DNA from: an uncultured cyanobacterium
Lineage (GTDB): Bacteria; Cyanobacteriota; Cyanobacteriia; Cyanobacteriales; CAWUOF01
DNA: 64,000 nucleotides
NCBI GenBank assembly: GCA_963744145.1
Contig: CAVUSO010000001.1
Coordinates: 1,998,831-2,062,830 of the forward strand
Direction of reading: 5' to 3'
In this document: piece by piece, positions 19,353-51,888 of the stretch
Layout of the letters: each line of letters opens with the position of its first letter
Position numbering within the stretch: the first letter of the stretch is position 1
Translations under genes and position numbers: made by a program
Notes under the pieces: model-generated
Told to the model about the DNA's origin: nothing
Database searches by the model: none
What the model saw: the letters and a program-made list of their open reading frames with translations, nothing else

Positions 19353-21596
19353 CCCACATTCCGCACCCTGAACTGTCACAATTCGTAATTACTGAAATAA
19401 ACCTCTATCAAAGCTGAAATTTTGGCCCACTATCGTCAAAAAAGAGGTTTTTAAACCTTGATGGTCAGGTCATCAATCTCTAGTTTATTAATAATTATTA
19501 GCAATAAGTAGAAAATGAGGATTTCGGCCCGTTTTTTCAATAAATTTTGGTGTTGACTAGCTCTCTTAACTCAGTTTTGTTAGTTAATAACTGAACAATC
19601 TCTAGTTAAGATAGGTTAATTCTTAGCTCTTAATTAAATTCAAGAACTCATTCAAGCTAAATATATTTATGCTATATTAGCAAGAGGATTAAGTGATAAA
19701 TTTATAGTAGCGCCGACAATCTTCTGGTAGCAGGGTCAGGATAAATTCACGTTCATTACTCCAATTAGATACTTGTTGTTGTTGTTGAAATGTGACCAGG
19801 TGAATTGCTTGAAAGCATTGAAATATCCATTTAGCTGTTGGACGGTCTGTTGCTTTCCCTAACTGATTTTTTATGGTTGATTTTGCTGCTGATAAAGCGG
19901 CTCGTATTTGTCTTTGTGCTAGGGTATAAACCAGTAAACCTAGCCCCATAATTGCTGCTAATGATTCGATGCGTTCGGGACTTTTCAGATAAACACTATC
20001 TGCAAAAAATGTGGGATCTTTAAGAAAACCAAATCCTCTTTCACAGGATTGCTGTGCCTTATACTCAGTCAGCATTGCCTCATTACTAATTTCGCTTTCT
20101 GCTAAAACGTTCGTCGCAATTATGAATCTACCTGCACTGTTAGTTTCTTGTTCAATTTGGCTTTTATCCTCGGTAAAACTGCCGAGAATTTGATAACACT
20201 TTTTTTGACTTTTATCTAATTTATCTGGTCTGATTTCCCTGACTTCTTTTGGTTCAATTTGATGATATTTAAAGGATTTCGATAGGTGAGTTAATGCCTT
20301 GACTGCATCAGCTTTACAGGCAAATCTATCTTGGGATAATTTTCCTAATTCGCTGTTCAGTTTGGTGGCGGATTTACTAATTTTCTGTGATAATTTCCGT
20401 AAATCTGATTCTCTTCTTTCTTGACTTTCCACAACTAGCCATCTTTGCTTTATCCCACCATAAGTCTGCTCTTTTGCCGCCCATGAATATCCAACTAATT
20501 TGCTTTTAGTAAATTCTGAATCTGGCAAATTTGCTACTAATTCTTGGGCTAATTTTATCTTTAACGGTACTCGGCTTAACCACTTAATTTCCGACATTAA
20601 TTTGAGATTATCTTCTGTATATAAGGCACAATCAGCTACGATTAAACTATCTACTTTTATTTGATTTTTATAATCAATTGCTATCTTCGCAAAGCATGAT
20701 GAGTCGGCTTGATTTCCTGACGCTGCTTTTAAAAATATTGGGATATCTCCATCCCCGGTACATACTAATTCTATTAAAAATTGTTTTAAATCAGGTCTAT
20801 GGTCACGGGAATAACCGTAATTTATTTTGATTGGTTGTCGCGATTTTATTTGGGGCTCTCCTTGGTATGACAATTCTGGCTGACTAAATATTATCTCTGG
20901 TAATTCTTGATGATATTCCCCATGTACGTGAATTGACGATGAGTCTAGATGGGATGTATTTAAAGATATATCAAACTTTTTAACTGCATTTAAAGTAATT
21001 GCTAAAAATATTGTATCCAGTCCTTTACTATATAGTTTATCCATCACTCTTCCCAGTTTATCGTCATTTAAATATTCGGGCTTTACCCCGGCTCCTATTA
21101 AATGTTCACAGGGAATTGATTCAAAAAATTTCGGAAACATATATAATGGTTTAGAAATAAATCCTAACCCATTGATAATCATTGCTTTAACTGCTTGTCC
21201 AGCAGTAACTTTTTCTCCCGATTCTATCCCGATTAAATTATTAATTATTTCTACTATTCCAATCGTATCTACTATTCCTGCTACTAACCCCAGATGGTCG
21301 ATATTCTGAATTTTAATATCGTTTATGTCTACCATAGTTACCCAATTTAACGAGCCAATTTTTGGTTCAATTATCGCATTTTTAGGCTCGATTGCAATTA
21401 ATTTTTTTACTCTTTCATTTTCCGGACTTCTGCTACGGTTAATCTCTCAATAACCCAGGACCTCTTTCTGCTCATAAATCTAGTTTAATAAAATTTATTC
21501 TCATTAATCTCATTTATGATCTTTTTGAGCCAACTTTCTTCGTCCCCAATTTTTACCCTTTTATTAAGATGTGCCAGTGAGGGTGCGGAATGTGGG
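19353..21596 (-). mobile_element. IS1634/IS4-like insertion sequence, copy 1 (2244 bp) with terminal inverted repeats CCCACATTCCGCACCCT and 6-bp TSD TTATAA
   Basis: Terminal inverted repeats at 19353 and 21596. Flanks are gatTATAA|ccc and ggg|TTATAAcg. Carries the intact 548-aa transposase (19689..21335). Confidence 0.85.
19689..21335 (-). CDS. DDE transposase (IS4 superfamily, IS1634-like)
   Basis: 548 aa. N-terminal IQNIDHLGLVAGIVDTIGIVEIIN...NDDKLGRVMDKLY region characteristic of IS1634-type transposases. Near-identical (frameshifted) copy at 41158..42806. Divergent paralog at 36281..37921. Confidence 0.8.
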   Translation of the reverse strand: MVDINDIKIQNIDHLGLVAGIVDTIGIVEIINNLIGIESGEKVTAGQAVKAMIINGLGFISKPLYMFPKFFESIPCEHLIGAGVKPEYLNDDKLGRVMDKLYSKGLDTIFLAITLNAVKKFDISLNTSHLDSSSIHVHGEYHQELPEIIFSQPELSYQGEPQIKSRQPIKINYGYSRDHRPDLKQFLIELVCTGDGDIPIFLKAASGNQADSSCFAKIAIDYKNQIKVDSLIVADCALYTEDNLKLMSEIKWLSRVPLKIKLAQELVANLPDSEFTKSKLVGYSWAAKEQTYGGIKQRWLVVESQERRESDLRKLSQKISKSATKLNSELGKLSQDRFACKADAVKALTHLSKSFKYHQIEPKEVREIRPDKLDKSQKKCYQILGSFTEDKSQIEQETNSAGRFIIATNVLAESEISNEAMLTEYKAQQSCERGFGFLKDPTFFADSVYLKSPERIESLAAIMGLGLLVYTLAQRQIRAALSAAKSTIKNQLGKATDRPTAKWIFQCFQAIHLVTFQQQQQVSNWSNEREFILTLLPEDCRRYYKFIT

Positions 21597-24908: not shown

Positions 24909-25363
24909 TTAATATTACAGGTTAATCAAATAGTAGTTACTCAGTAACTCACTCTACGATAATTGCCTAAGATGCTATTTTAGAAGTTTTGTTTCTCTTT
25001 GTGTAAAGTTTTGTTTCAAAATGTAACATTACCCCAGATTTGATATAGTTAAATAACTGATACCAATTGATGATGAAGATACATTGATAGGATTGATCTG
25101 TGGGTGGGGGTGGGTTTTGATGATTAGTGGGTAAATAGCAAAAATCTCGGTGAACCCACCCCTACAAAAATCCGCAAATTGAGGATAAAATTGGTAGGGG
25201 CAGGTTCACCAATCAATTCTGTCACCAACAGATATCCATGATAAACCTGCCCTGACCTAATAGATCAACCTCAGATTAAGTGCAATTTCATAGTAAATTG
25301 GTATGAGTACCTAAATCTATTCCAAAATACTACTATTTTCCTTCAATGAAGTCAGGTGTTTAA

Positions 25364-26575
25364 GTGCTGAAAGAACTACATCTAAAATGGATTGGTCTTG
25401 CTCCTAAATTTGATATCGAATTTGGGGAAAGACTCAATATATTTACAGGTGATAATGGTTTAGGAAAAACATTTTTACTAGATCTAATTTGGTGGAAACT
25501 TACGGGCACATGGATAGACACCCCCGTATTTCCTCAACAAATGGAAGAAGAAAAACCAGAAATTCGTTGTTTAATTGAACAACAGCAGCTTAGTTTATTT
25601 CCGGATGAAGACGTCAGTTATTTTGACTTCGATCAACAAACATGGTACGATCAAAACCCTAGTAATACTCAACGAGATTTATATAGTCTAGTCATTTATA
25701 TCCGGATCGATGGAGGATTCTCGCTTTTAGATCCGGCTCGAACTTCTAAAACTGCTTATAATTTTACTCAGGACAATCTTTGGAATGGATTAAAAAGAAG
25801 TAGTGGGAAAGTTGTCTGTAATGGGTTAATTCAAGATTGGGTCAAGTGGCAAAACCAACCCGATCAATCAATGTTTAAACTATTATCGAATGTGATTAGA
25901 CAGCTTTCTCCCCATCCTAATGAATGGATGGAACCTGGAGAACCCATGCGAGTTTCAGTGGAAGATGTGCGCGATATTCCGACCATAAAAATGCCCTACG
26001 GAACTATCCCAGTCATCCACGCTTCAGCCGGAATGAAACGCATCTTAGGACTAGCTTATTTACTGGTTTGGAGTTGGGACGAACACCTGCAAGCATCAAC
26101 ACTGCGTAAACGTCAACCTCTTAACCAAATTACTTTATTAATAGATGAAGTAGAATCTCATCTCCATCCCCAGTGGCAACGATCAATTTTACCATCTGTT
26201 TTAAAAGTAGCTACCGATTTACAGCAGATCATGAAAATTCAAGCTATAGCTACTACCCACTCGCCATTAGTTCTTGCCTCATTGGAACCTGTATTTAATG
26301 AAGAAAAAGACAAATTATTTTTATTTGAATTGCAACAACAAGAAGTTACCCTCAATGAAATTCCTTGGAGTAAACAAGGAGATATAGTTGGCTGGTTAAC
26401 TTCAGAAATATTTGGTTTAAAACAAGCTCGTTCTAAAGAAGCTGAAACTGTGATTGAAGCAGCCGAAGCATGGATGCGACACGATAATATAAATACCTTT
26501 CCTGAAAACTTGAGAACCCCCTCACAAATTCAACAAGAACTAGAACGACTACTTCCGGGACATGACCCTTTTTGA
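25364..26575 (+). CDS. AAA15/ABC-type ATPase, PtuA-like (Septu-like defense ATPase)
   Basis: Walker A GDNGLGKTF, Q-loop region, Walker B/D-loop LLIDEVESHLHPQWQ, H-loop ATTHSPL. 403 aa. The next gene, 6 bp downstream on the same strand, is HNH-like. Confidence 0.65.
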   Translation: MLKELHLKWIGLAPKFDIEFGERLNIFTGDNGLGKTFLLDLIWWKLTGTWIDTPVFPQQMEEEKPEIRCLIEQQQLSLFPDEDVSYFDFDQQTWYDQNPSNTQRDLYSLVIYIRIDGGFSLLDPARTSKTAYNFTQDNLWNGLKRSSGKVVCNGLIQDWVKWQNQPDQSMFKLLSNVIRQLSPHPNEWMEPGEPMRVSVEDVRDIPTIKMPYGTIPVIHASAGMKRILGLAYLLVWSWDEHLQASTLRKRQPLNQITLLIDEVESHLHPQWQRSILPSVLKVATDLQQIMKIQAIATTHSPLVLASLEPVFNEEKDKLFLFELQQQEVTLNEIPWSKQGDIVGWLTSEIFGLKQARSKEAETVIEAAEAWMRHDNINTFPENLRTPSQIQQELERLLPGHDPF

Positions 26576-26581
26576 TCCTCG

Positions 26582-27196
26582 TTGGATTGTCAAAACGGAG
26601 GTACATCGCCCATGATGCGATTTAACCCGCCACCCGAACCGCCAGAGTTTGATCAAAAAGCGCGAAAACCGGGGAATAATTGGTTAGCCAAAAATCCAGA
26701 TCATAAAAGACCCAGAGATTATTGGTCACCCTTTAAAAGCAATTTAGCCGATGCTGCTGGTAACCTCTGTAGCTACTCTGTTATGTACGAACCTATTGGT
26801 ACAGTAGACCATTATTTGAGTTGTGAAAATTATCCTAATCTTGTTTATGAATGGAGTAACTATCGCTTTGCATCAGCCTGGATTAATAGCAGTAAATGCA
26901 AGTTAGATGACCAAGTGCTTGATCCTTTCCAAGTAGGAGATGATTGGTTTGAAATCATCCTTCCTTCTCTTCAATTAATATTAACAAGTAAAGTTCCATC
27001 AGCCGAACGTCAAAGAGCAGAATTTACTTTACAACGCTTACGTCTGCGTGATGATGAACGAGTACTGCGCCAACGTCAAGAATGGTATCAGCTTTACCTG
27101 GATGGCGATCTGACACTGCAAGGACTAGAAAAGAAAGCCCCTTTAATTGCCCGTGCAGTCAGAAAACAGCAGCAAAGCCACTTATTTGAGTCCTAA
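26582..27196 (+). CDS. HNH-like nuclease-fold protein (TIGR02646/PtuB-like) with partly degenerate zinc-finger cysteines
   Basis: Segment GNLCSYSV...VDHYLSCENYPNLVYEWSNYRFASAWINSSK fits the HNH pattern (CxxC ... DH..P ... N ... N..K). The second and distal Cys positions are replaced by Ser, Ala or Trp. 204 aa. Confidence 0.5.
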   Translation: MDCQNGGTSPMMRFNPPPEPPEFDQKARKPGNNWLAKNPDHKRPRDYWSPFKSNLADAAGNLCSYSVMYEPIGTVDHYLSCENYPNLVYEWSNYRFASAWINSSKCKLDDQVLDPFQVGDDWFEIILPSLQLILTSKVPSAERQRAEFTLQRLRLRDDERVLRQRQEWYQLYLDGDLTLQGLEKKAPLIARAVRKQQQSHLFES

Positions 27197-27282
27197 TCAT
27201 ATAGGAAACTTATGCAATTGACACTCCCATGCCTAAAGGCGATGGGATTCTTGAATCAATGACCGCACTTAACCAATTCTGA

Positions 27283-28578
27283 TCACTCAGAACTAGCCAG
27301 AGGCGCAGTCTCCTCAAGCGTTGAAATTCCGGTGTGCCCCACCGTATTTTTAAATCCTAATCCTCTTGCTAATATATTCTTAGCAGCGTTTAAATCTCGA
27401 TGTTCAACTAATCCACAACTAGGACATTTATGAGTACGAGTAGACAAAGATTTTTGCACTCTTGTACCACATTGATGGCAATCCTGAGATGTGAAGTGGG
27501 GAGCTACGGCAAATACATGAACACCAAGTATTTTGGCAAAATAATCAACCCAATCAGTGAACATTGACCATGCTACGTCTGAGATTGATTTAGCAAGTTT
27601 GTGATTCTTCACTAAATTACACACTTTTAAATCTTCGTAGACAATCACATCGCTAGATGTTACTAAACGCCGTGCAGTTCTTACCGCAAATTCTCGACGT
27701 TGCCTACTGACCTTTAAGTGTTTTCTTGCCATCTTATTAATGGCTTTCTTGCGGTTGTTAGACCCCTTTTTCCTTTTGGAAACTCTACGTTGTAGTCTCT
27801 TTAAGGACTTTTCTGACTTCCGCAAGAATCTAGGGTTTTCTACCTGATTACCGTCTGAATCGGTATAGAAATATTCCAAACCTAGATCAATACCAACTGC
27901 TTTACCAGTCGGTGTTTGTGGCTCAGAACGCTCTACCTTAATTAAGAATTGGCAGTAATACCCATCAGCTCTTTTAACAACCCTAATCCGTTTGATTTGC
28001 TCAAGTTGATAGAAATTTAGATCACTAATCCGATGGACGGGAGGATGCGTAGTGCAATATGCTCCTTGAGCTAATGCTTTAACGCCATCGTTTAAACCGA
28101 TTAGCTTAAATGCTTGCGTTGAGCGTAGTCGAAACGTTCCCGCTTTAAAACCATCAGTGAATGTGATCTTTTTTCGATCTTCCGACAGCGCTTTAAAACC
28201 ATCAGTGAATGTGATCTTTTTTCGATCTTCCGACAGTGACCAGCCAGTTTGTTTATATTCAACTGATCTACCACGTTTTTTGAATTTTGGGTATCCTTTT
28301 CGAGGCTTTTGCTCCTTACAGTTTTGGTAGAATCTAGAAATTCCATTCCAAGCACGATCAGCCGAAGCTTGTCTTGCTTGAGAATTTAACTTCTTAGCCC
28401 AGTCAAACTCTTTTGCTAAAGTAGAACAAAGTTTTTGGAGATCATTTTTACTAACACCGCGATTGTCCATCCAGTATCGCAAAGCTTTGTTACGAATAAA
28501 ATTAGCTGTACGGATTGCTTCGTCTAGCAACTCGTACTGCCAATTTTTTCCACTTAACTTTGCTTCTAGTATTAACAT
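27283..28578 (-). CDS. tnpB: TnpB (IS200/IS605-family OrfB, RuvC-like) without adjacent tnpA; carries an in-frame 48-bp tandem duplication
   Basis: RuvC motifs, a C-terminal zinc finger (CHQCGTRVQKSLSTRTHKCPSCG) and DLNAAKNI. The duplicated 16-aa unit is ALSEDRKKITFTDGFK, encoded by 28141..28188 and 28189..28236. Confidence 0.8.
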   Translation of the reverse strand: MLILEAKLSGKNWQYELLDEAIRTANFIRNKALRYWMDNRGVSKNDLQKLCSTLAKEFDWAKKLNSQARQASADRAWNGISRFYQNCKEQKPRKGYPKFKKRGRSVEYKQTGWSLSEDRKKITFTDGFKALSEDRKKITFTDGFKAGTFRLRSTQAFKLIGLNDGVKALAQGAYCTTHPPVHRISDLNFYQLEQIKRIRVVKRADGYYCQFLIKVERSEPQTPTGKAVGIDLGLEYFYTDSDGNQVENPRFLRKSEKSLKRLQRRVSKRKKGSNNRKKAINKMARKHLKVSRQRREFAVRTARRLVTSSDVIVYEDLKVCNLVKNHKLAKSISDVAWSMFTDWVDYFAKILGVHVFAVAPHFTSQDCHQCGTRVQKSLSTRTHKCPSCGLVEHRDLNAAKNILARGLGFKNTVGHTGISTLEETAPLASSE

Positions 28579-29505: not shown

Positions 29506-30930
29506 TTGAAGCTAGTAAACGGTAAAGTTGTGATACGTATGGCAAATTCTCTTCCAGCATCCAACTCAGGATTAGAAAGAATTGACGAAGCCAGGAAAAG
29601 GAAAGGATGGAATAAAGACTCGACTATTTGGATTGATAGTGCTAACAAACTACTTGAAGTTACTCCCAAAGGAAGCGTTTCGCGTTCAACTCTGAAACGA
29701 TTTTGGCAAAAGCAGGCGATTCGTCAGGAAAACTTTGCAGCTATTTGTAAAGCTGTCGGGATAGATAACTGGGAAGAGATTGTTGATCATACCCCAACTC
29801 TGCAAACTTCAGCATATATGGAGTTTAGTCTCAATGACGATAAGTGGGTTGGGCGAGAACCTCTAATTCAACAGTTGAGCAATCACATAAATTCTTCCTG
29901 TCGTGTCTTGCTATTGGTTGGAATTACAGGGATCGGTAAAACTGCTTTAGCTGAACGAATAGTACAGGAATTACGGGGTGATTGGAGAGAACACAGGAGT
30001 AATTTTGAAGGTGATAATAAAGCTTCAGATTTTACCAGCGTTGCGTTGCAATGGCTGGAAAAATGGGGGGTAAATATTCCAAAAGAGGAGCGGAACTCAG
30101 AGCAAATATTACGGCGGTTAGTCAAACGCTTGTGCGAAAATCGTTATTTAATCCTGATGGATTCTCTTGAGTACCTATTGATAGGAAATGAAGAGGATGG
30201 CTGGGGTGATTTTGCTGATGAGTGGTGGGGGAAATTTTTTGTCAGTTTCTTAGCAGAAGCATCTTGTCAAAGTCGTTTCATTCTTACATCTCAAGATTTG
30301 CCAACTAAGTTTGAGACGGCAGAATGCGATCGCTATAAAAATCTCTGGTATTGCCAACTTTTGAAAGGGTTAGAAATACCCGAACAAATGGCGTTATTTC
30401 AAAAATTTGAACTAGATGGCGATTTGGAATTACCACATAGTCCCATGCGAGTGATTGGGGAAGTTTATGACGGACATCCTTTGGCATTGGGGACAATTGC
30501 CGGAGAAATTAAGGAATCTTATGGTGGGAAAGTCAGAGCTTACTGGAAAGAGAACAGTCGTTATATTGAAGAGGTAAAAGAGGCTATTGACGAAGCTCGG
30601 AACCAAGGCATCGTAAAAGGGGATGAAGATAGGTGGCAGTTAGCATCATACACAAAGGTCTTGCGACGGAAAGTCAAAGAACGAATTGAGAAGACATTTG
30701 AACGGTTAAAAAATGACGTATATGATGCCTATTTTTTACTTTGTACTGCTTCAATATATCGCTGCGAAGTCAAAGAAATATGGTGGCTGATTAATTTAGA
30801 AGATGAGGGATACAGTGAGGATCAGCAAAAGGCTGCTATTCAAACTTTGCGAGAACGGTATTTAGTTGAAGATAGAGGAATTGACGATGAAGATAATCGG
30901 TTGGTAGCAATACTCCGGACACTTTGGTGA
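29506..30930 (+). CDS. STAND-class NTPase (NB-ARC/AP-ATPase domain) with N-terminal HTH-like domain and no C-terminal sensor repeats (likely start at MANSLPAS, about 29539)
   Basis: P-loop VGITGIGKTALA, Walker B LILMDSLE, RNBS-B-like FILTSQD, GxP motif GHPLALGTIAG. N-terminal about 80 aa is HTH-like (SRSTLKRFWQKQAIRQENFAAICKAVGI). Ends after the winged-helix region. Confidence 0.7.
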   Translation: MKLVNGKVVIRMANSLPASNSGLERIDEARKRKGWNKDSTIWIDSANKLLEVTPKGSVSRSTLKRFWQKQAIRQENFAAICKAVGIDNWEEIVDHTPTLQTSAYMEFSLNDDKWVGREPLIQQLSNHINSSCRVLLLVGITGIGKTALAERIVQELRGDWREHRSNFEGDNKASDFTSVALQWLEKWGVNIPKEERNSEQILRRLVKRLCENRYLILMDSLEYLLIGNEEDGWGDFADEWWGKFFVSFLAEASCQSRFILTSQDLPTKFETAECDRYKNLWYCQLLKGLEIPEQMALFQKFELDGDLELPHSPMRVIGEVYDGHPLALGTIAGEIKESYGGKVRAYWKENSRYIEEVKEAIDEARNQGIVKGDEDRWQLASYTKVLRRKVKERIEKTFERLKNDVYDAYFLLCTASIYRCEVKEIWWLINLEDEGYSEDQQKAAIQTLRERYLVEDRGIDDEDNRLVAILRTLW

Positions 30931-31178
30931 GAGAAAATTATTTATAGGTATAATTGACTAACCAATAGTTTTCGGCCAATAGCCAAAAGACAGACTGGGA
31001 CTAGCCGAAAACCTGATTTGGCAGATATTTTCGATTCTGAATCGTTTTCTACTTGAACAATTTTCTGGCCAAATCAGGCAACCGAACGGATTGGGCGCAA
31101 TTTTTTCCTTACTGAGATCACCAAAAAAATATCGATCGTGAGAGAATTTACTATGTAAATTCGACCCGACCGATAATT

Positions 31179-40897: not shown

Positions 40898-43143
40898 CCC
40901 ACATTCCGCACCCTCACTGGCACATCTTAATAAAGGGGTAACAATTGGGGACGAAGAAAGTTGGCTCAAAAAGATCATAAATGAGATTAATGAGAATTAA
41001 TATTATTAAACTAGATTTATGAGCAGAAAGAGGCTCTGGGTTGTTGAGAGATTAACCGTAGCAGCAGTCCGGAAAATGAAAGAGTAAAAAATTAATTGTA
41101 ATCGAGCCTAAAAATGCGATAATTGAACCAAAAATTGGCTCGTTAAATTGGGTAACTATGGTAGACATAAACGATATTAAAATTCAGAATATCGACCATC
41201 TGGGGTTAGTAGCAGGAATAGTAGATACGATTGGAATAGTAGAAATAATTAATAATTTAATCGGGATAGAATCGGGAGAAAAAGTTACTGCTGGACAAGC
41301 AGTTAAAGCCATGATTATCAATGGGTTAGGATTTATTTCTAAACCATTATATATGTTTCCGAAATTTTTTGAATCAATTCCCTGTGAGCATTTAATAGGA
41401 GCCGGAGTAAAGCCCGAATATTTAAATGACGATAAACTGGGAAGAGTGATGGATAAACTATATAGTAAAGGGCTGGATACAATATTTTTAGCAATTACTT
41501 TAAATGCGGTTAAAAAGTTTGATATATCTTTAAATACATCACATCTTGACTCATCATCAATTCACGTACATGGGGAATATAATAAGCGAGTTACCAGAGA
41601 TAATATTTTGTCAGTCAGAATTGTCAGACCAAGGAGAAACCCAAATAAAATCGCGACAACCAATCAGAATAAATTACGGTTATTCCCGTGACCATAGACC
41701 TGATTTAAAACAATTTTTAATAGAATTAGTATGTACCGGGGATGGGGATATCCCAATATTTTTAAAAGCCGCGTCAGGAAATCAAGCCGACTCATCATGC
41801 TTTGCGAGCATAGCAATTGATTATAAAAATCAAATAAAAGTCGATAGCTTAATCGTAGCTGATTGTGCCTTATATACAGAAGATAACCTGAAATTAATGT
41901 CGGAAATTAAGTGGTTAAGCCTCGTACCGTTAAGCATAAAATCAGCCCAAGAATTAGTAGCAAATCTGCCAGATTCAGAATTTACTAAAAGCAAATTAGT
42001 TGGATATTCATGGGCAGCAAAAGAGCAGACTTACGGTGGAATAAAGCAAAGATGGCTAGTTGTACTCTCGTCAAGAAAGAAGGGAATCAGATTTACGGAA
42101 GTTATCACAGAAAATTAGTAAATCTGCCACCAAACTTAGCAGCGAATTGGGAAAATTATCCCAAGATAGATTTGCCTGTGAAGCTGATGCAATCAAGGCA
42201 TTAACTCACCTATCGAAATCCTTTAAATATCATCAAATTGAACCAAAAGAAGTAAGGGAAATCAGACCAGATAAATTAGATAAAAGTCAAAAAAAGTGCT
42301 ATCAAATTCTCGGCAGTTTTACCGAGGATAAAAGCCAAATTGAGCGAGAAACTAACAGTGCTGGTAGATTCATAATTGCAACGAACGTTTTAGCAGAAAG
42401 CGAAATTAGTAATGAAGCGATGCTGACTGAGTATAAGGCACAGCAATCCTGTGAAAGAGGATTTGGTTTTCTTAAAGATCCCACATTTTTGGCGGATAGT
42501 GTTTATCTGAAAAGTCCCGAACGCATCGAATCATTAGCAGCAATTATGGGGCTATGTTTACTGGTTTATACGCTAGCACAAAGACAAATACGAGCCGCTT
42601 TATCAGCAGCAAAATCAACCATAAAAAATCAGTTAGGAAAAGCAACAGACCGCCCAACAGCCAAATGGATATTTCAGTGCTTTCAAGCAATTCATATTGT
42701 CACATTTCAACAACAACAACAAGTATCTAATTGGAGTAATGAACGTGAATTTATCCTGAACCTGCTACCAGAAGATTGTCAGCGCTACTATAAATTTATC
42801 ACTTAATCACTCTTGCTAATATCTCATAAGTGGATTTGGCTTGAACGAGTTCTTGAATTTAATTAAGAGCTAAGAATTAACCTATCTTAACTAGAGATTT
42901 TGCAGTTATTAACTAACAAGACTGAGTTAAGAGAGCTAATCAACACCAAAATTTATTGAACAAACGGGCCGAAATCCTCATTTTCTATTTATTGCTAATT
43001 ATTATTAATAAACTAGAGATTGATGACCAGACCCTCAAGGTTTAAAAACCTCTTTTTTGACGATAGTGGGCCAAAATTTCGGCTTTGATAGAGGTTTATT
43101 TCAGTAATTACGAATTGTGACAGTTCAGGGTGCGGAATGTGGG
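40898..43143 (+). mobile_element. IS1634/IS4-like insertion sequence, copy 3 (2246 bp), inverted relative to copy 1, no target-site duplication, transposase pseudogenised
   Basis: Ends match copy 1. Flanks gtagat| and |ttgaaa do not form a TSD. The transposase is split into ORFs 41158..41691, 41546..42118 and 42060..42806 by at least two frameshifts. Confidence 0.8.
41158..42806 (+). pseudogene. Frameshifted IS1634-like transposase (copy of 19689..21335)
   Basis: Three overlapping ORFs together cover the full-length protein. Breaks fall near HGEY (about 41585) and near VVESQERRESD (about 42070). Confidence 0.8.
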
Positions 43144-47699: not shown

Positions 47700-48290
47700 A
47701 TGCGATCGCAAATCACCACTGTTGAAATCAAAGCAGTCAAACCCGATTACACACCAGAAGAGTATTTAGAACTAGAGGAAAAATCTGACTGCAAAAATGA
47801 ATATCACAATGGAGAAATTGTATCAATGGCTGGTGGGACAACTAATCATAATACAATTGCTCTTAATTTGGCTGCTTACTTCAAGTTTGGTTTAAAAGGA
47901 AAAGGCTACAATACCTATATTGGAGATGTGAAACTGTGGATACCTCGTTATCACGAGTTTACCTATCCTGATGTAATGGTAATTAAGGGTAAGCCTATTT
48001 ATTATGGCACCAATACCACCACAGTAATGAATCCTTTATTAATTGCTGAGGTTTTATCTAAATCTACTAGAGATTATGACCAAGGAGATAAATTTCTTTA
48101 TTATCGTTCTATACCTGAGTTAAAAGAGTATATCCTGATTGACCAAGATAAATATCATGTCATGCAGCATAAAAAAATTTCTGAAGATGAATGGTTATTA
48201 TCTGAGTATGAGTTAGAAGATGTTGTCTTAGACATTCAGTCAATTGGGTTGAAAATATCTGTTAGTGATATTTATGATCAAGTAATCTAA
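47700..48290 (+). CDS. Uma2-family (DUF820) putative restriction-endonuclease-like protein
   Basis: Conserved YTPEEYLELEE...EYHNGEIV...MAGGT N-terminal region and a PD-(D/E)xK-like core. The family is abundant in cyanobacteria. Confidence 0.75.
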   Translation: MRSQITTVEIKAVKPDYTPEEYLELEEKSDCKNEYHNGEIVSMAGGTTNHNTIALNLAAYFKFGLKGKGYNTYIGDVKLWIPRYHEFTYPDVMVIKGKPIYYGTNTTTVMNPLLIAEVLSKSTRDYDQGDKFLYYRSIPELKEYILIDQDKYHVMQHKKISEDEWLLSEYELEDVVLDIQSIGLKISVSDIYDQVI

Positions 48291-48583
48291 CAGATTGTCA
48301 TAATAAAGGTACATCCATTACTGTGTAAGACTTAATTCCCCTCCAACTTTCATAAAAATAACTCGGCAAGTGGGAAACTCAGTTCTTTAGAACTGGGAGG
48401 GAAACGGCACGAGCGGTTTTAACTTTGTCATCTTTTTCTTAGAATGGTAATTAATTAAAAATTTAACTTGATGAATATGATAATAATTTGGTTATACATT
48501 TTCTAAATTTGGCTTGATTTGCTATTGACAACTTCTAATTTAATGTATTATGATTTAATAGTCAAGCACCGAAAATTAAGTCA

Positions 48584-49933
48584 ATGGCTAAATCTAAACC
48601 TAAGCAATTAATAGGAGTGCAGCAGATATTATTATCACCAGACAATGAGACTAAAGCATTGTTACAATACCTGTGTGAGCAATCAGGTAAACTTTATAAC
48701 TGTGGGGTATACTATGCGCGGCAAATTCTGTTCAAAACTGGGAAACTACTAACTAATAAATTTGCTTTAGCGGTTGAACCATCTGTAGCAAAAAGCTTAT
48801 TGGCTCAATCAATGCCATCTACACCAATGCAACAAACATTGATGTCTGTAACAGAAGCATTTAAGTCCTTTCAGCAACTAAGAGATTTATATATCAAAGG
48901 TGAGTTACACTTTCGACCAAAACCACCTCACTATCTGAAAGGTTCTAAACTGTTCAAAGTAGCTTATCCGAATTCAGGGGCTCAAAGACCAAAGCTAATT
49001 AATGGTCAATTAAGATTTTCGTTAGGGCTAACAGTAAGAAGATGGTTTGGGATTGATGAATTTTTCTTACCCATGCCTGCTAATCTTGACTATTCATCAG
49101 TCAAAGAGTTTACTATTCTGCCTAAAAATGGTGCTTTTTACCTAGAGGTATCTTATGAAATAATTAAAAAGGAACATAGATTACATCCAAATCATGCTCT
49201 ATCAATTGACTTAGGGACTGCTGACAATCTCGCTGCTTGTGTTGATACTTTAGGTAATTCCTTTTTAATTGATGCTCGTGCTATGAAAGCCATGAATCAA
49301 CTTTGGAACAAGAAAGTATCAACTAGAAAAGAAGGAAAACCAGAGGGATACTGGGATAATTGGTTAGACCGGATTACCCGGAAACGTAACCATCAAATGC
49401 GTGATGGTGTTAATAAAGCAGCTAAACTGATAATTAAACATTGTTTAACTTATCAAATTGGCACTTTAGTAATTGGTTGGAATCAGGACTTTAAAACTAA
49501 TGTAAATCTGGGTAATTTGAATAATCAAAAGTTTGTTCTTATGCCTTTAGGAAAACTAAAAGAACGACTCCAACAACTCTGCATTTTAAACGGCATTAAG
49601 TTTGTAGAAACCGAAGAGGCTTACACTTCCAAAGCTAGCTATCTTGATGGAGACTCCCTACCCAAATATGGCGAAAAACCAGAAGGGTGGAAAGCATCTG
49701 GACGGCGAGTAAAAAGAGGTTTGTACCGCACAGCTCAAGGTTTTTTAATCAATTCCGATTTGAATGGTGCGGCGAATATTTTAAGGAAAGTAGCCAAGAA
49801 CCTAAACTTAGATTTAGGCAGACTGGGTAGACGGTGTTTGACGACCGTAGCGAGAATTAGACTTTGGGTACTACCTGAAGGGGCGTATTGCAATACGCCC
49901 GTACTTTGTCCGCAGAATCGAGCGTGTCTTTAG
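48584..49933 (+). CDS. tnpB: TnpB (IS200/IS605-family OrfB), second non-identical copy, no tnpA
   Basis: 449 aa. OrfB N-terminal region, RuvC motifs (DLGTADNLAA, ...EEAYTSK..., SDLNGAANIL). The C-terminal zinc finger appears degenerate. Confidence 0.75.
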   Translation: MAKSKPKQLIGVQQILLSPDNETKALLQYLCEQSGKLYNCGVYYARQILFKTGKLLTNKFALAVEPSVAKSLLAQSMPSTPMQQTLMSVTEAFKSFQQLRDLYIKGELHFRPKPPHYLKGSKLFKVAYPNSGAQRPKLINGQLRFSLGLTVRRWFGIDEFFLPMPANLDYSSVKEFTILPKNGAFYLEVSYEIIKKEHRLHPNHALSIDLGTADNLAACVDTLGNSFLIDARAMKAMNQLWNKKVSTRKEGKPEGYWDNWLDRITRKRNHQMRDGVNKAAKLIIKHCLTYQIGTLVIGWNQDFKTNVNLGNLNNQKFVLMPLGKLKERLQQLCILNGIKFVETEEAYTSKASYLDGDSLPKYGEKPEGWKASGRRVKRGLYRTAQGFLINSDLNGAANILRKVAKNLNLDLGRLGRRCLTTVARIRLWVLPEGAYCNTPVLCPQNRACL

Positions 49934-50400: not shown

Positions 50401-51888
50401 CTACAGTTACAATACGGTTCGGTTAAGCTAAAAATCAGGTAAAATGAAAGTGTCACCTAAATGGAATGAGTAGGAATGCAGCTCAAAGAATTCACTGTAA
50501 TATCACCTGTGGTCGAATCAGGGATGATCCTCAAAGCGTTAGAAACAGCGATTCCATCGACAGCAATTGAAAAAGCCATTGAAGATACCAATAGAAAAGA
50601 GGAACGACAAAGAGCATTACCAACGCATCTGGTTATCTGTCTAATCATTGGGATGAGTCTATGGTCTAGGGGGTCAATGAGGACAGTGTTGAAAAATCTG
50701 GTTGATGGCTTAAATGAAGCATGGGTCAGAGTTAGTTATTATTGGCGAATACCATGTAAATCATCAATTACAGAAGCTAGACAGCGAGTAGGTGCAGGGG
50801 TAATGCGGCATCTGTTTCACATAGTAGTTAGACCACAGGCTACTAGGGAAACCCCAGGGGCTTTTTTAGGTGAAAAGCGAATTATGGCTGTAGATGGAAC
50901 AGTGTTTGATGTGCCAGATAGCGACACAAATGCCAGAGTATTTGGATATCCAGCTAGTCGTCCTGGAACTAGAGCCGCGTTTCCCAAGGTGCGTTTGGTT
51001 CTATTGATTGAAGCAGGAACACATTTAATTGTAGATGCCTTGATCTGCCCTTACCGAATCGGTGAGCGAGTCAGAGTGAAAAGGTTACTACGGTCAGTCA
51101 CCACTGGAATGTTATTAATGTGGGATCGTGGATTGCATTCTTATGCAATGGTGCAAGCCACCTTGTCCCAAAAATGTGATTATTTGGGACGCATCCCCAA
51201 AAATGTTAAATTTCCTGTGGAGCAGGTATTGGATGATGGTTCCTATCTCTCCTGGATTGCTCCCGACGGCAAGTCGAAAAAACAGGGCATGACCAAAATT
51301 ATGGTTCGAGTCATTGAATACACTATTGATAATGGCGAAGCACAAACTTACCGTCTGATTACCAGTTTGACGGACATCGCTTTATTTCCAGCTTTATTAT
51401 TAGCCACAGAATATCATCGTCGTTGGGAAGTTGAAAATACTATCGATGAATTGAAGGTTCATCAATTGGGACGTAAAACTCTGATTCGTTCTCTTCATCC
51501 CCGTGAAGTGGTTCAGGAAATTTATGGTTGGCTCCTCGGACATTGGGCGGTTCGTTCTCTCATGTTGACCGCGGCCACCTCTGCTCACATCTCCCCTTTA
51601 CGATTGAGTTTTACTGGTACTCTCAATGTTGTCCGTCGTGCTATTCCCAAATTTCAGCGCCTTCAACCAGAAGAATTTCCCCTTTTTTTTAGTTGGTTGA
51701 TCAGGGAAATTTTGGATGAACCAATTCCCAAACGTGAAGGTAGAAGTAACCCTCGTGTTATTAAAAAAACTCGCGCCAAATTTCCATCCAAGAAACCAAT
51801 TCATAGAGGTCAGGGAGTTAAACATGAAACCCTCAATTTTTCTATCCTCAATACTGCTTAAAGCTTAACCGAACCGTATTGCCTACAG
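50401..51888 (+). mobile_element. IS4-family insertion sequence with near-perfect terminal inverted repeats (core CAATACGGTTCGGTTAAGCT, about 20 bp)
   Basis: Left inverted repeat 50401..50429 and right inverted repeat 51862..51888, read directly. Carries transposase 50476..51861. A partial extra inverted-repeat copy follows at 51889..51910. Confidence 0.8.
50476..51861 (+). CDS. IS4-family DDE transposase
   Basis: 461 aa with DDE_Tnp_1-type organisation. Flanked by the inverted repeats above. Confidence 0.75.
   Translation: MQLKEFTVISPVVESGMILKALETAIPSTAIEKAIEDTNRKEERQRALPTHLVICLIIGMSLWSRGSMRTVLKNLVDGLNEAWVRVSYYWRIPCKSSITEARQRVGAGVMRHLFHIVVRPQATRETPGAFLGEKRIMAVDGTVFDVPDSDTNARVFGYPASRPGTRAAFPKVRLVLLIEAGTHLIVDALICPYRIGERVRVKRLLRSVTTGMLLMWDRGLHSYAMVQATLSQKCDYLGRIPKNVKFPVEQVLDDGSYLSWIAPDGKSKKQGMTKIMVRVIEYTIDNGEAQTYRLITSLTDIALFPALLLATEYHRRWEVENTIDELKVHQLGRKTLIRSLHPREVVQEIYGWLLGHWAVRSLMLTAATSAHISPLRLSFTGTLNVVRRAIPKFQRLQPEEFPLFFSWLIREILDEPIPKREGRSNPRVIKKTRAKFPSKKPIHRGQGVKHETLNFSILNTA

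What the first reader, a model, noticed from the sequence alone, without database searches (positions are those of the whole stretch)
25364..27196. Septu-like two-gene defense module: AAA15 ABC-ATPase plus HNH-like partner with degenerate zinc-finger cysteines
The two genes lie on the same strand 6 bp apart. The first has a full ABC/AAA15 motif set (GDNGLGKT, LLIDEVESHLHP, TTHSP). The second carries an HNH-type core (C-x2-x ... DH ... N ... N-x2-K), but the usual CxxC zinc knuckles are replaced by C-SYS and ASAWIN. This is the PtuA/PtuB architecture. The partly cysteine-less HNH variant has not been characterised experimentally. The module lies beside TnpB and a STAND NTPase in an IS-rich island.
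Basis: partly seen in the sequence, partly recalled or inferred. Interest (0 to 1): 0.6.

Follow-up and report, generated by a model that had tools for sequence, protein, structure and literature searches.

The report
Ordinary Septu defence pair, ptuA clipped
This is a standard two-gene Septu anti-phage module (PtuA ATPase plus PtuB HNH nuclease) from a subfamily common in cyanobacteria; its cysteine-poor nuclease is normal for stand-alone Septu, and the only unusual feature is a stop-plus-frameshift that removes the conserved last 13 residues of PtuA in this genome.

Summary
Both genes exist and are a stand-alone (type I) Septu cassette. PADLOC subfamily models match both proteins over their full length: PtuA at 9e-169 and PtuB at 5.6e-75. 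Predicted folds match the solved E. coli Septu and retron PtuA/PtuB chains first. A PtuA homolog lies directly upstream of PtuB in 79 of 79 related loci across several phyla.

The cysteine observation is correct. Only C53 of the four zinc-ligand positions is retained, while D66, H67, N83, N92 and K95 are kept. This holds across the whole family. It is also shared with the structurally characterised E. coli Septu PtuB lineage (C-C-Y-S … N-L-A-A-S-A). Published work describes the Cys4 zinc finger as a peculiarity of the retron-Eco7 PtuB. The claim of an uncharacterised variant is therefore not supported.

The real ptuB start is the ATG at 26612, not the TTG at 26582. The window's ptuA also carries TGG→TGA plus a 1-nt insertion at 26573-26576. 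This removes a W-P-R-W-I-V tail found in 119/119 homolog clusters and 77/77 genomic loci, and it breaks the usual tight ptuA/ptuB junction (an ATGA overlap in the closest relatives). This copy may be recently impaired.

Interest is low: a new member of a known kind.

The parts
25364..26575 (+). ptuA: an ABC/SMC-type (AAA_15/AAA_21) ATPase of 403 aa with a GTG start. Walker A is G29-T36 (K35). The signature-like motif is S221-A-G-M-K-R226. Walker B is L258-L-I-D261-E262. The H-loop is T297-T-H299-S-P. It ends 13 codons early compared with every homolog examined.
   Evidence: One search gives the ORF. One search gives AAA_21 at 1.8e-17 and AAA_15 at 4.8e-16. One search gives PADLOC PtuA PDLC00307 at E=9e-169, covering residues 1-403 of a 424-position profile. 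One search shows the motif residues are invariant in 36 homologs and that M1/L2 support the GTG start. One search shows that the model of the 75%-identical homolog P0272 matches E. coli Septu PtuA (8eea/8sux/8ee4) first, at E about 1e-14.
26573..26576 (+). Lesion at the ptuA 3' end. TGA replaces the conserved Trp codon TGG (26573-26575), and there is one extra T at 26576.
   Evidence: DNA alignment with 8 close loci, all of which read TGG-CC where the window reads TGA-T-CC; this is the only one of 120 protein clusters that ends at F403.
26577..26615 (+). Out-of-frame remnant of the conserved ptuA tail. It reads P-R-W-I-V-K-T-E-V-H-R-P-stop. Its TGA (26613-26615) overlaps the ptuB ATG as ATGA, as in the closest relatives. 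The ptuB Shine-Dalgarno GGAGG (26597-26601) lies inside it.
   Evidence: Searches give the sequence. One search shows 77/77 loci carry a [W/F/L]-[P/A]-R-W-[I/V/L] tail of 8-19 aa, and 17 loci have the ATGA overlap. One search shows R and W are invariant in 119/119.
26612..27196 (+). ptuB: 194 aa. It has an N-terminal HNH (beta-beta-alpha-Me) nuclease domain without the Cys4 zinc finger: C53-x-Y55-S56, D66-H67, N83, S88, N92-S-S-K95. It has a C-terminal beta-hairpin plus a four-helix domain (about 113-193), which is the predicted PtuA-docking domain.
   Evidence: PADLOC PtuB PDLC00348 at E=5.6e-75, starting at residue 11 of the 204-aa ORF; the exact 194-aa product is in NCBI; column conservation. 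AF2 secondary structure; the top-10 Foldseek PDB hits are all PtuB chains; the family profile hits solved PtuB chains at 5e-6 to 1e-3, and C53/S56/H67/N83 align with Ec78 C43/C46/H57/N73.
27283..28578 (-). Neighbour, not part of the system. This is tnpB (IS605-family OrfB plus the Cas12f1-like TNB domain), convergent with ptuB. It contains a perfect in-frame 48-nt tandem duplication at 28141-28236.
   Evidence: OrfB_IS605 at 1e-29 and TNB at 4e-21; repeat D1.

Best explanation
The locus is a stand-alone (type I) Septu anti-phage cassette, ptuA-ptuB, from a subfamily that is common in filamentous cyanobacteria and has spread horizontally to other phyla.

By homology with the solved E. coli Septu and retron PtuAB complexes, the likely mechanism is as follows.
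1. PtuA is an ABC/Rad50-like ATPase. It binds ATP at head-to-head dimer interfaces and assembles into higher oligomers.
2. The three-helix C-terminal extensions of a PtuA dimer clamp the helical C-terminal domain of one PtuB.
3. PtuB is an HNH nuclease. His67 is the general base, and Asn83 and Asn92 complete the beta-beta-alpha-metal site.
4. The complex is held inactive in uninfected, ATP-replete cells.
5. On infection it cuts nucleic acid. [quoted passage not shown] The outcome is abortive infection.

What is shown here: domain identity, conservation of the catalytic residues, fold, strict gene pairing, and the absence of a reverse transcriptase.

What is inferred by homology only: oligomeric state, ATP control, trigger and substrate.

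The lack of a Cys4 zinc finger is the normal state of this family and of the characterised E. coli Septu PtuB. It is not a degenerate oddity.

In this genome ptuA carries a TGG-to-TGA change plus a 1-nt insertion. This deletes the universally conserved C-terminal W-P-R-W-I-V tail and removes the ATGA overlap with ptuB seen in the closest relatives. I consider it more likely than not (about 55%) that this copy is recently weakened or inactivated rather than fully functional.
For: Family identity:
- PADLOC PtuA at 9e-169 and PtuB at 5.6e-75, both full length.
- Pfam AAA_21/AAA_15 for PtuA.
- Foldseek of the PtuB model returns only PtuB chains in the top 10.
- Foldseek of the PtuA-family model returns E. 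coli Septu PtuA first, then retron PtuA, then Rad50.
- The PtuB family profile hits solved PtuB chains at 5.3e-6 to 1.2e-3.
- 33 of 65 family members reach TIGR02646 and 26 of 65 reach NF041761 PtuB.

Gene pairing:
- A PtuA homolog lies directly upstream on the same strand in 79/79 loci that have room.
- Nucleotide similarity to other genomes is confined to 25360-27201.

Catalytic core:
- H67, N83 and N92 are about 99% conserved and D66 and K95 more than 90% conserved, both among 120 close homologs and among 116 representatives at 50% clustering.
- The H-to-N spacing of 16 equals that of Ec78 H57/N73 and EcB88 H75/N91.

Zinc-finger absence is normal for stand-alone Septu: and PMC12673091.

Architecture:
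- The PtuB model has a beta-hairpin plus four C-terminal helices, as described for Ec78 PtuB (PMC12804668).
- The PtuA model has three C-terminal helices, matching the CTE three-helix element (PMC12819146).

No reverse transcriptase or retron ncRNA nearby.

Published mechanism: PMC12804668, PMC12819146 and PMC13096335.

Lesion.
Against: - The window's PtuB does not reach the curated cutoffs of TIGR02646 (12.3 bits against 52.15) or NF041761 (14.2 against 150), and it has no Pfam HNH hit.
- Identity to the solved PtuA and PtuB chains is only 14-18%.
- The AF2 models are of moderate quality (pLDDT about 73). The HNH loop 50-63 is below 50.
- No member of this subfamily has, to my knowledge, been tested against phage. 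Substrate, trigger and oligomeric state are extrapolated from distant relatives.
- PtuA's Q-loop residue could not be mapped, so whether PtuA hydrolyses ATP is unknown.
- The effect of losing the tail is inferred from conservation alone. The three CTE helices that dock PtuB in the solved complexes are intact.
Confidence: 0.9

Rival explanations
1. The ptuA lesion is an assembly or sequencing artefact, and the genome really carries an intact, ordinary Septu cassette with the full W-P-R-W-I-V tail and the ATGA overlap.
For: The lesion sits right after a T5 run (CCCTTTTTGATCC). Everything else in both genes is intact, and the remnant tail still reads 12 sensible codons in the shifted frame. The source contig is 7.63 Mb, which suggests a long-read assembly.
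Against: Two adjacent differences are needed (G to A plus an extra T), not a simple change in homopolymer length. Indels between the two diverged IS copies in the window are not homopolymer-associated, so there is no sign of systematic indel error. The 403-aa product is what the public record carries.
Confidence: 0.15
2. One reading: a functional Septu-like module whose HNH partner is a novel, experimentally uncharacterised variant with partly degenerate zinc-knuckle cysteines.
For: Three of the four Cys ligand positions are not Cys. The curated TIGR02646 and PtuB models and the Pfam HNH models do not reach significance for this protein. This particular subfamily has no solved structure at the sequence level.
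Against: The same C-x-Y-S first knuckle is found in the solved E. coli Septu PtuB 8ee7_C. The same Cys-free A-S-A third-ligand region is found in its close relatives. PMC12673091 describes the zinc finger as a feature of retron-Eco7 PtuB that Septu PtuB and SpCas9 lack. A dedicated PADLOC model for this subfamily has existed since 2023. The pattern is family-wide across at least 1,251 representatives at 50% clustering.
Confidence: 0.05
3. A different ATPase-nuclease system is masquerading as Septu. Candidates are a retron type I-A effector pair (type II Septu) detached from its reverse transcriptase, or an OLD, Gabija or PARIS-like ABC ATPase system.
For: The ATPase also gives weaker hits to AriA, AbiLi and retron ATPase models through the shared ABC core.
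Against: The best PADLOC hits are subfamily-specific PtuA and PtuB models, more than 100 orders of magnitude ahead of AriA and AbiL. The partner is HNH/PtuB, not TOPRIM. There is no RT ORF or Rfam retron RNA within the window. The PtuA model matches stand-alone E. coli Septu PtuA ahead of the retron PtuAs. At 403 aa the protein has no room for the retron-specific N-terminal and coiled-coil additions of the roughly 550-aa retron PtuAs.
Confidence: 0.02

Closest known systems
E. coli stand-alone (type I) Septu PtuAB. PDB 8EE4, 8EE7, 8EEA, 8SUX; Li et al. 2024, as cited in PMC12819146 and PMC12804668.
   Same: - Two-gene ptuA-ptuB operon without a reverse transcriptase.
- ABC-type PtuA with a C-terminal helical extension.
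- PtuB with an N-terminal HNH domain and a helical C-terminal domain.
- An HNH domain without a Cys4 zinc finger, with the same C-x-Y-S first knuckle.
- It is the best structural match for the PtuA-family model.
   Different: - Only about 16% sequence identity.
- PtuA is shorter (403, or 416 when intact, against 465 aa) and PtuB is shorter (194 against 243 aa).
- The third metal-site residue is Asn92 here, where the E. coli lineage has Asp in A-S-A-L-D.
- This subfamily has its own invariant F-W-P-R-W tail. It has no experimental data.
PADLOC-DB Septu subfamily models PDLC00307 (PtuA) and PDLC00348 (PtuB)
   Same: The window proteins match these models end to end, at 9e-169 and 5.6e-75. The subfamily is therefore already catalogued as Septu.
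   Different: The window's PtuA stops at profile position 409 of 424. This agrees with the missing tail.
Retron-Eco7/Ec78 and Ec83 PtuAB (type I-A retron effectors, also called type II Septu). PDB 9VH1, 9KJX, 9NNB, 9N69, 9E90.
   Same: Homologous PtuA and PtuB folds. The same H...N(16) catalytic spacing. The same PtuA-CTE to PtuB-CTD docking logic.
   Different: - The retron versions need an RT, ncRNA and msDNA.
- Their PtuA is about 550 aa, with an N-terminal extension and a coiled coil.
- Their PtuB carries a Cys4 zinc finger that is essential for defence (C43/C46/C78/C90).
- None of these features is present here.

Membership tests
Septu type I (stand-alone PtuA + PtuB) | PtuA is an ABC/AAA_15-type ATPase with Walker A, a signature-like motif, Walker B and an H-loop, and it matches Septu PtuA models. 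| tested here: met
   PADLOC PDLC00307 at E=9e-169, full length. AAA_21 and AAA_15 hits. K35, S221/G223, D261/E262 and H299 are invariant in 36 homologs. The fold matches 8eea/8sux/8ee4 first (using the model of the 75%-identical homolog P0272).
Septu type I (stand-alone PtuA + PtuB) | PtuB is an HNH (beta-beta-alpha-Me) nuclease with the catalytic His and Asn, plus a helical C-terminal domain. | tested here: met
   PADLOC PDLC00348 at E=5.6e-75. H67, N83 and N92 are about 99% conserved. The family profile hits solved PtuB chains at 5e-6. The top-10 fold hits are all PtuB. The model has a beta-hairpin plus four C-terminal helices.
Septu type I (stand-alone PtuA + PtuB) | The two genes are adjacent, co-oriented and co-inherited. 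| tested here: met
   79/79 related loci with room upstream have ptuA immediately upstream on the same strand. The junction is an ATGA overlap or a gap of less than 27 nt in most loci.
Septu type I (stand-alone PtuA + PtuB) | No associated reverse transcriptase or ncRNA. This separates it from type II Septu, the retron I-A system. | tested here: met
   The neighbours are an M15 dipeptidase, a pentapeptide protein, YidD, TnpB and a STAND NTPase. There are no Rfam hits in the window.
Septu type I (stand-alone PtuA + PtuB) | An intact PtuA C-terminal element that recruits PtuB. | tested here: inconclusive
   The three predicted CTE helices are present. The terminal W-P-R-W-I-V tail, invariant in 119/119 clusters and 77/77 loci, is deleted in the window. 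Its role is unknown. It has low pLDDT in the monomer model.
Septu type I (stand-alone PtuA + PtuB) | Confers phage resistance, with ATP-regulated nuclease activity. | not testable with these tools
   This requires expression, phage challenge and biochemistry.
NCBIfam TIGR02646 / NF041761 (retron-type PtuB HNH) | A score at or above the curated cutoff. | tested here: not met
   TIGR02646 scores 12.3 bits against a cutoff of 52.15 (E=0.14). NF041761 scores 14.2 against 150. At family level, 33 of 65 and 26 of 65 members reach E<=0.01. The protein is therefore a related family, not a member by the curated threshold.
NCBIfam TIGR02646 / NF041761 (retron-type PtuB HNH) | A Cys4 structural zinc finger (Ec78 C43, C46, C78, C90). 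| tested here: not met
   Only C53, which aligns with C43, is Cys. Position 56 is S, L, T or A, and position 88 is S, A or D, across 116 representatives.
Pfam HNH families (PF01844 and relatives) | A significant Pfam HNH domain hit. | tested here: not met
   There is no Pfam family for PtuB even at E<=1.
OLD / Gabija / PARIS (ABC ATPase + TOPRIM nuclease) | A TOPRIM nuclease domain or partner. | tested here: not met
   The partner matches only PtuB/HNH models. The AriA hits come only from the shared ATPase core.

The most novel reading that the evidence does not exclude
The invariant C-terminal F-W-P-R-W-[I/V]-[V/I] tail of this PtuA subfamily may be a previously undescribed functional element. 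It could be a short docking or autoinhibitory peptide that orders only at a PtuA-PtuB or PtuA-PtuA interface. It is encoded across the ptuB ribosome-binding site, so that its translation is coupled to ptuB. If so, the window holds a natural tail-less allele that would separate complex assembly from regulation. More broadly, this distant, untested Septu clade (about 16% identity to the E. coli system) could use a different trigger or substrate from the E. coli systems.
Probability: 0.25. Interest if true: 0.35.

Novelty: new member of a known kind. Interest (0 to 1): 0.15.

Why it matters
It matters little beyond annotation. The locus should be labelled as Septu type I (ptuA/ptuB), with ptuB starting at 26612 and ptuA flagged as 3'-truncated.

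Three modest points are useful.
- The absence of the Cys4 zinc finger is the rule in stand-alone Septu PtuB and should not be read as degeneration.
- This large cyanobacterial subfamily (at least 1,251 clusters at 50% identity) escapes the curated TIGR02646, NF041761 and Pfam HNH models. Pipelines that rely on those models therefore annotate it as 'hypothetical'.
- The universally conserved PtuA tail and its natural loss here offer a cheap structure-function experiment for a defence system that has not yet been studied in cyanobacteria.

Tried and rejected
- A single-sequence search of PtuB against PDB sequences found nothing. A narrow family profile gave only E about 0.7. A broader profile was needed.
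- The search for related loci with the divergent alignment A2 failed because it had no conserved 7-10-mer. It worked with A1.
The source species therefore remains unnamed. The closest PtuB relatives are Aerosakkonema and Floridaenema, at 84-88%.
- The primary Septu structure paper (PMC12318543) is not held. Its content is cited second-hand from PMC12804668, PMC12819146 and PMC12673091.
- The attempt to recover the full 8ee7_C sequence returned only partial relatives. These cover ligand positions 1-3 but not position 4.
- The Rfam scan of the whole window gave no hits, so no retron ncRNA or omega-RNA family was detected.
- No convincing sigma-70-type promoter was found upstream of ptuA.
- I considered and rejected programmed frameshifting or readthrough at the ptuA stop. 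Restoring the frame needs both stop suppression and a frameshift, and no relative has this arrangement.
- I considered the two inverted IS copies (19.6 kb and 41.1 kb) as a composite transposon carrying Septu. I did not pursue this, because the segment between them also holds housekeeping-like genes.
- The PtuA Q-loop residue, which decides whether the ATPase is active, could not be mapped without residue-level structural alignments.
Full report
**Observation**

The window has two co-oriented ORFs, at 25364-26575 (403 aa, GTG start) and 26582-27196.

The '6 bp apart' spacing comes from taking the first possible start codon. The ATG at 26612 is preceded by a GGAGG at 26597-26601. It is the point where the PADLOC PtuB profile begins (residue 11 of the 204-aa ORF). 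It also gives the 194-aa protein that is on record in NCBI with 100% identity. The GTG start of the first gene is supported by the conserved M-L-K-E-L-H-L N-terminus of its homologs.

**What the two proteins are**

- Protein 1 hits Pfam AAA_21 and AAA_15. It matches the PADLOC Septu model PtuA PDLC00307 end to end at E=9e-169.
- Protein 2 has no Pfam hit. It fails the curated NCBIfam models: TIGR02646 at 12.3 bits against a cutoff of 52.15, and NF041761 at 14.2 against 150. It does match PADLOC PtuB PDLC00348 at 5.6e-75 over its full length.
- A profile built from 65 divergent members hits solved PtuB chains: 22bv_F at 5.3e-6, retron Ec78 PtuB at 1.3e-5, and E. coli Septu 8ee7_C at 1.2e-3.
- Of those 65 members, 33 reach TIGR02646 and 26 reach NF041761 at E<=0.01.
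- An AlphaFold2 model of PtuB (pLDDT 73) returns only PtuB chains in the top ten PDB fold matches.
- A model of the 75%-identical PtuA homolog P0272 (pTM 0.71) matches E. coli Septu PtuA (8eea, 8sux, 8ee4; E about 1e-14) ahead of the retron PtuAs and Rad50.
- The predicted secondary structure fits the published architecture. PtuB has a short beta-beta-alpha HNH core followed by a beta-hairpin and four helices (compared with PMC12804668). PtuA ends in three helices, matching the C-terminal extension that clamps PtuB in a nine-helix bundle (PMC12819146).

**Co-conservation and spread**

PtuB has 1,595 word-indexed relatives and 1,251 cluster representatives at 50% identity. In species-representative genomes 242 loci encode a relative. 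The best 80 are mostly Nostocales and Oscillatoriales. They also include Acidobacteriota, Chlorobi, Desulfobacterales, Geobacteraceae, Chloroflexi and Heliophilum, at about 58-65% identity.

In 79 of the 79 loci with room upstream, a PtuA homolog lies immediately upstream on the same strand. Nucleotide similarity between the window and these loci stops at the cassette borders, 25360-27201. The inherited unit is therefore the gene pair alone. No reverse transcriptase or retron RNA is nearby. This is the stand-alone (type I) form.

**The cysteine question**

Numbering follows the 194-aa protein.

- C53 is almost invariant.
- Position 56 is S, T, L or A.
- Position 88 is S, A or D.
- Position 91 is hydrophobic.
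- D66, H67, N83, N92 and K95 are almost invariant.

This holds in 120 close homologs and in 116 representatives at 50% clustering.

In register with retron Ec78 PtuB (E-F-C-A-Y-C...I-E-H-F...W-S-N-L), our C53 aligns with C43, S56 with C46, H67 with H57 and N83 with N73. S88 aligns with C78 by spacing from the conserved Asn.

It is not new biology, however. The solved E. coli Septu PtuB reads L-C-C-Y-S-E...H-I-E-H. Its close relatives continue Y-Q-N-L-A-A-S-A-L-D-S without cysteine. PMC12673091 states that the retron-Eco7 PtuB contains a zinc finger (C43/C46/C78/C90) 'unlike the other HNH domains', naming Septu PtuB and SpCas9. The Zn-finger-less HNH is thus the state of the stand-alone Septu that has been characterised experimentally.

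All PtuA homologs extend past the window's stop codon with a tail F-W-P-R-W-I/V-V/I-T/K-x-E.

A DNA alignment with eight close loci shows TTT-TGG-CCT-CGT-TGG in every relative. The window has TTT-TGA-T-CCT-CGT-TGG, which is a Trp-to-stop change plus a one-base insertion.

- Among the 120 closest protein clusters, the window protein is the only one that ends at F403. R and W are invariant in the other 119.
- In 77 of 77 genomic loci PtuA carries a [W/F/L]-[P/A]-R-W tail of 8-19 residues.
- In 17 loci the stop overlaps the ptuB start as ATGA. In most others the gap is a few nucleotides.

Codons in the tail vary synonymously: CCT/CCC/CCA/CCG for Pro, and CGT/CGC/AGA for Arg. The W-P-R-W-I-V conservation is therefore at the protein level. 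The T-x-E part may also reflect the embedded Shine-Dalgarno sequence.

The remnant tail is still readable in the shifted frame (26577-26615) and ends in the ancestral ATGA. The lesion is therefore recent.

In the monomer model the tail has pLDDT below 50, which fits a segment that orders only at an interface. Its role is unknown. The three docking helices upstream of it are intact.

The lesion is not a simple homopolymer slip. Indels between two diverged IS copies in the window are not homopolymer-linked either. I therefore favour a real mutation over an assembly error, but I cannot prove it.

**Mechanism**

This part is inferred by homology. Type I Septu uses a catalytically inactive, ATP-binding PtuA that forms a horseshoe of three dimers and recruits two PtuB nucleases. 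The nuclease nicks or degrades DNA, and ATP inhibits it (Li et al. 2024, as summarised in PMC12804668 and PMC12819146). [quoted passage not shown] Deleting the PtuA C-terminal domain abolishes PtuB recruitment and toxicity.

For the window module I propose the same logic: PtuA oligomer, PtuB clamped by PtuA C-termini, and His67/Asn83/Asn92 metal-dependent cleavage released on infection.

Shown here: domain identity, catalytic residue conservation, fold and gene linkage. Not shown: oligomeric state, ATP control, trigger and substrate. Because the tail is universally conserved, I put about 55% on this copy being weakened or dead, about 30% on it being functional regardless, and about 15% on an assembly artefact.

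**Context**

The first ~19 kb carry housekeeping genes: an ABC1 kinase, PP2C, SMC and a radical-SAM methylthiotransferase-like gene.

From about 19.6 to 51.9 kb the window is IS-rich.
- DUF4277/DDE transposases lie at 19689-21335 and 36281-37921. A degraded copy at 41093-42896 is 95.6% identical to the first and inverted relative to it.
- A DDE_5 transposase lies at 31179-32465.
- TnpB genes lie at 27283-28578 and 48584-49933, and an IS4 transposase at 50476-51861.

Defence-flavoured neighbours are a STAND-like NTPase (29506-30930, weak AAA_16/NB-ARC, no PADLOC hit), TPR proteins, an AbiJ N-terminal-domain protein (38265-38729) and a Uma2 nuclease-fold protein.

**Verdict**

This is a correctly recognised but ordinary Septu type I cassette from a subfamily already catalogued in PADLOC. 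The 'uncharacterised Cys-less HNH' angle is not supported. The only unusual feature is the clipped ptuA. Novelty: new member of a known kind. Interest: 0.15.

Noticed in passing
window 28141-28236 (inside tnpB, minus-strand gene 27283-28578): A perfect 48-nt tandem duplication sits inside tnpB. It is in frame and duplicates 16 residues (…LSEDRKKITFTDGFKA… twice) in the N-terminal part of TnpB. It looks like a very recent slippage or duplication event.
   Followed up: partly
window 19600-21400 and 41093-42896: There are two copies of the same DUF4277/DDE (IS4-like) element in inverted orientation. They are 95.6% identical, with 75 substitutions and 4 small indels. The second copy is broken into three overlapping ORFs. 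Together they bracket a segment of about 20 kb that contains the Septu cassette, TnpB, the STAND/TPR genes and an AbiJ-domain gene.
   Followed up: partly
window 29506-35256: A STAND-like NTPase ORF (29506-30930, weak AAA_16/NB-ARC) is followed by a DDE_5 transposase (31179-32465) and then two TPR-repeat ORFs (32572-33747 and 33826-35256). This looks like an NB-ARC-TPR gene, or gene pair, split by an IS insertion. The NTPase has no PADLOC hit.
   Followed up: partly
window 38265-38729 (minus strand): A 154-aa protein has a strong AbiJ_NTD3 domain hit (3e-48). It may be part of another abortive-infection-type defence gene in the same variable region.
   Followed up: no
window 25056-25308: Imperfect 22-nt inverted repeats (25056-25077 and 25287-25308) enclose about 210 bp just upstream of ptuA. 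The enclosed sequence contains G-rich/C-rich self-complementary stretches (GTGGGTGGGGGTGGG … CCCACCCCTAC). The element is MITE-like, but only one copy exists in the window. No sigma-70-type promoter was predicted between it and ptuA.
   Followed up: partly
L030, L034, L035, L038, L044, L047 (Nostoc and Scytonema loci), between ptuA and ptuB: In six related loci, 446-454 bp lie between the ptuA stop and the ptuB start, so the otherwise tight junction is separated by what looks like an insertion. In L016 and L030 the best PtuA match covers only part of the protein. These look like independent disruptions of the same cassette in other genomes.
   Followed up: no
P0359, P0361, P0362, P0366 and others (Microcoleus PtuA homologs): A subset of PtuA homologs in this subfamily is 562 aa long, with an extra N-terminal PF20731 domain. 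This matches the longer PADLOC model PDLC00270, where the window protein aligns only to positions 215-591. It is a domain-fusion variant of the same Septu clade.
   Followed up: no
PtuB residue C53 (window 26768-26770): C53 stays almost invariant (110 of 112 non-gap residues at 50% clustering) even though the other three zinc-ligand positions are not Cys anywhere in the family. Why a lone cysteine is retained is not explained.
   Followed up: partly
window 47700-49933: A Uma2-family (putative restriction-endonuclease-fold) gene lies at 47700-48290. A second, divergent tnpB lies at 48584-49933, next to an IS4 transposase at 50476-51861.
   Followed up: no
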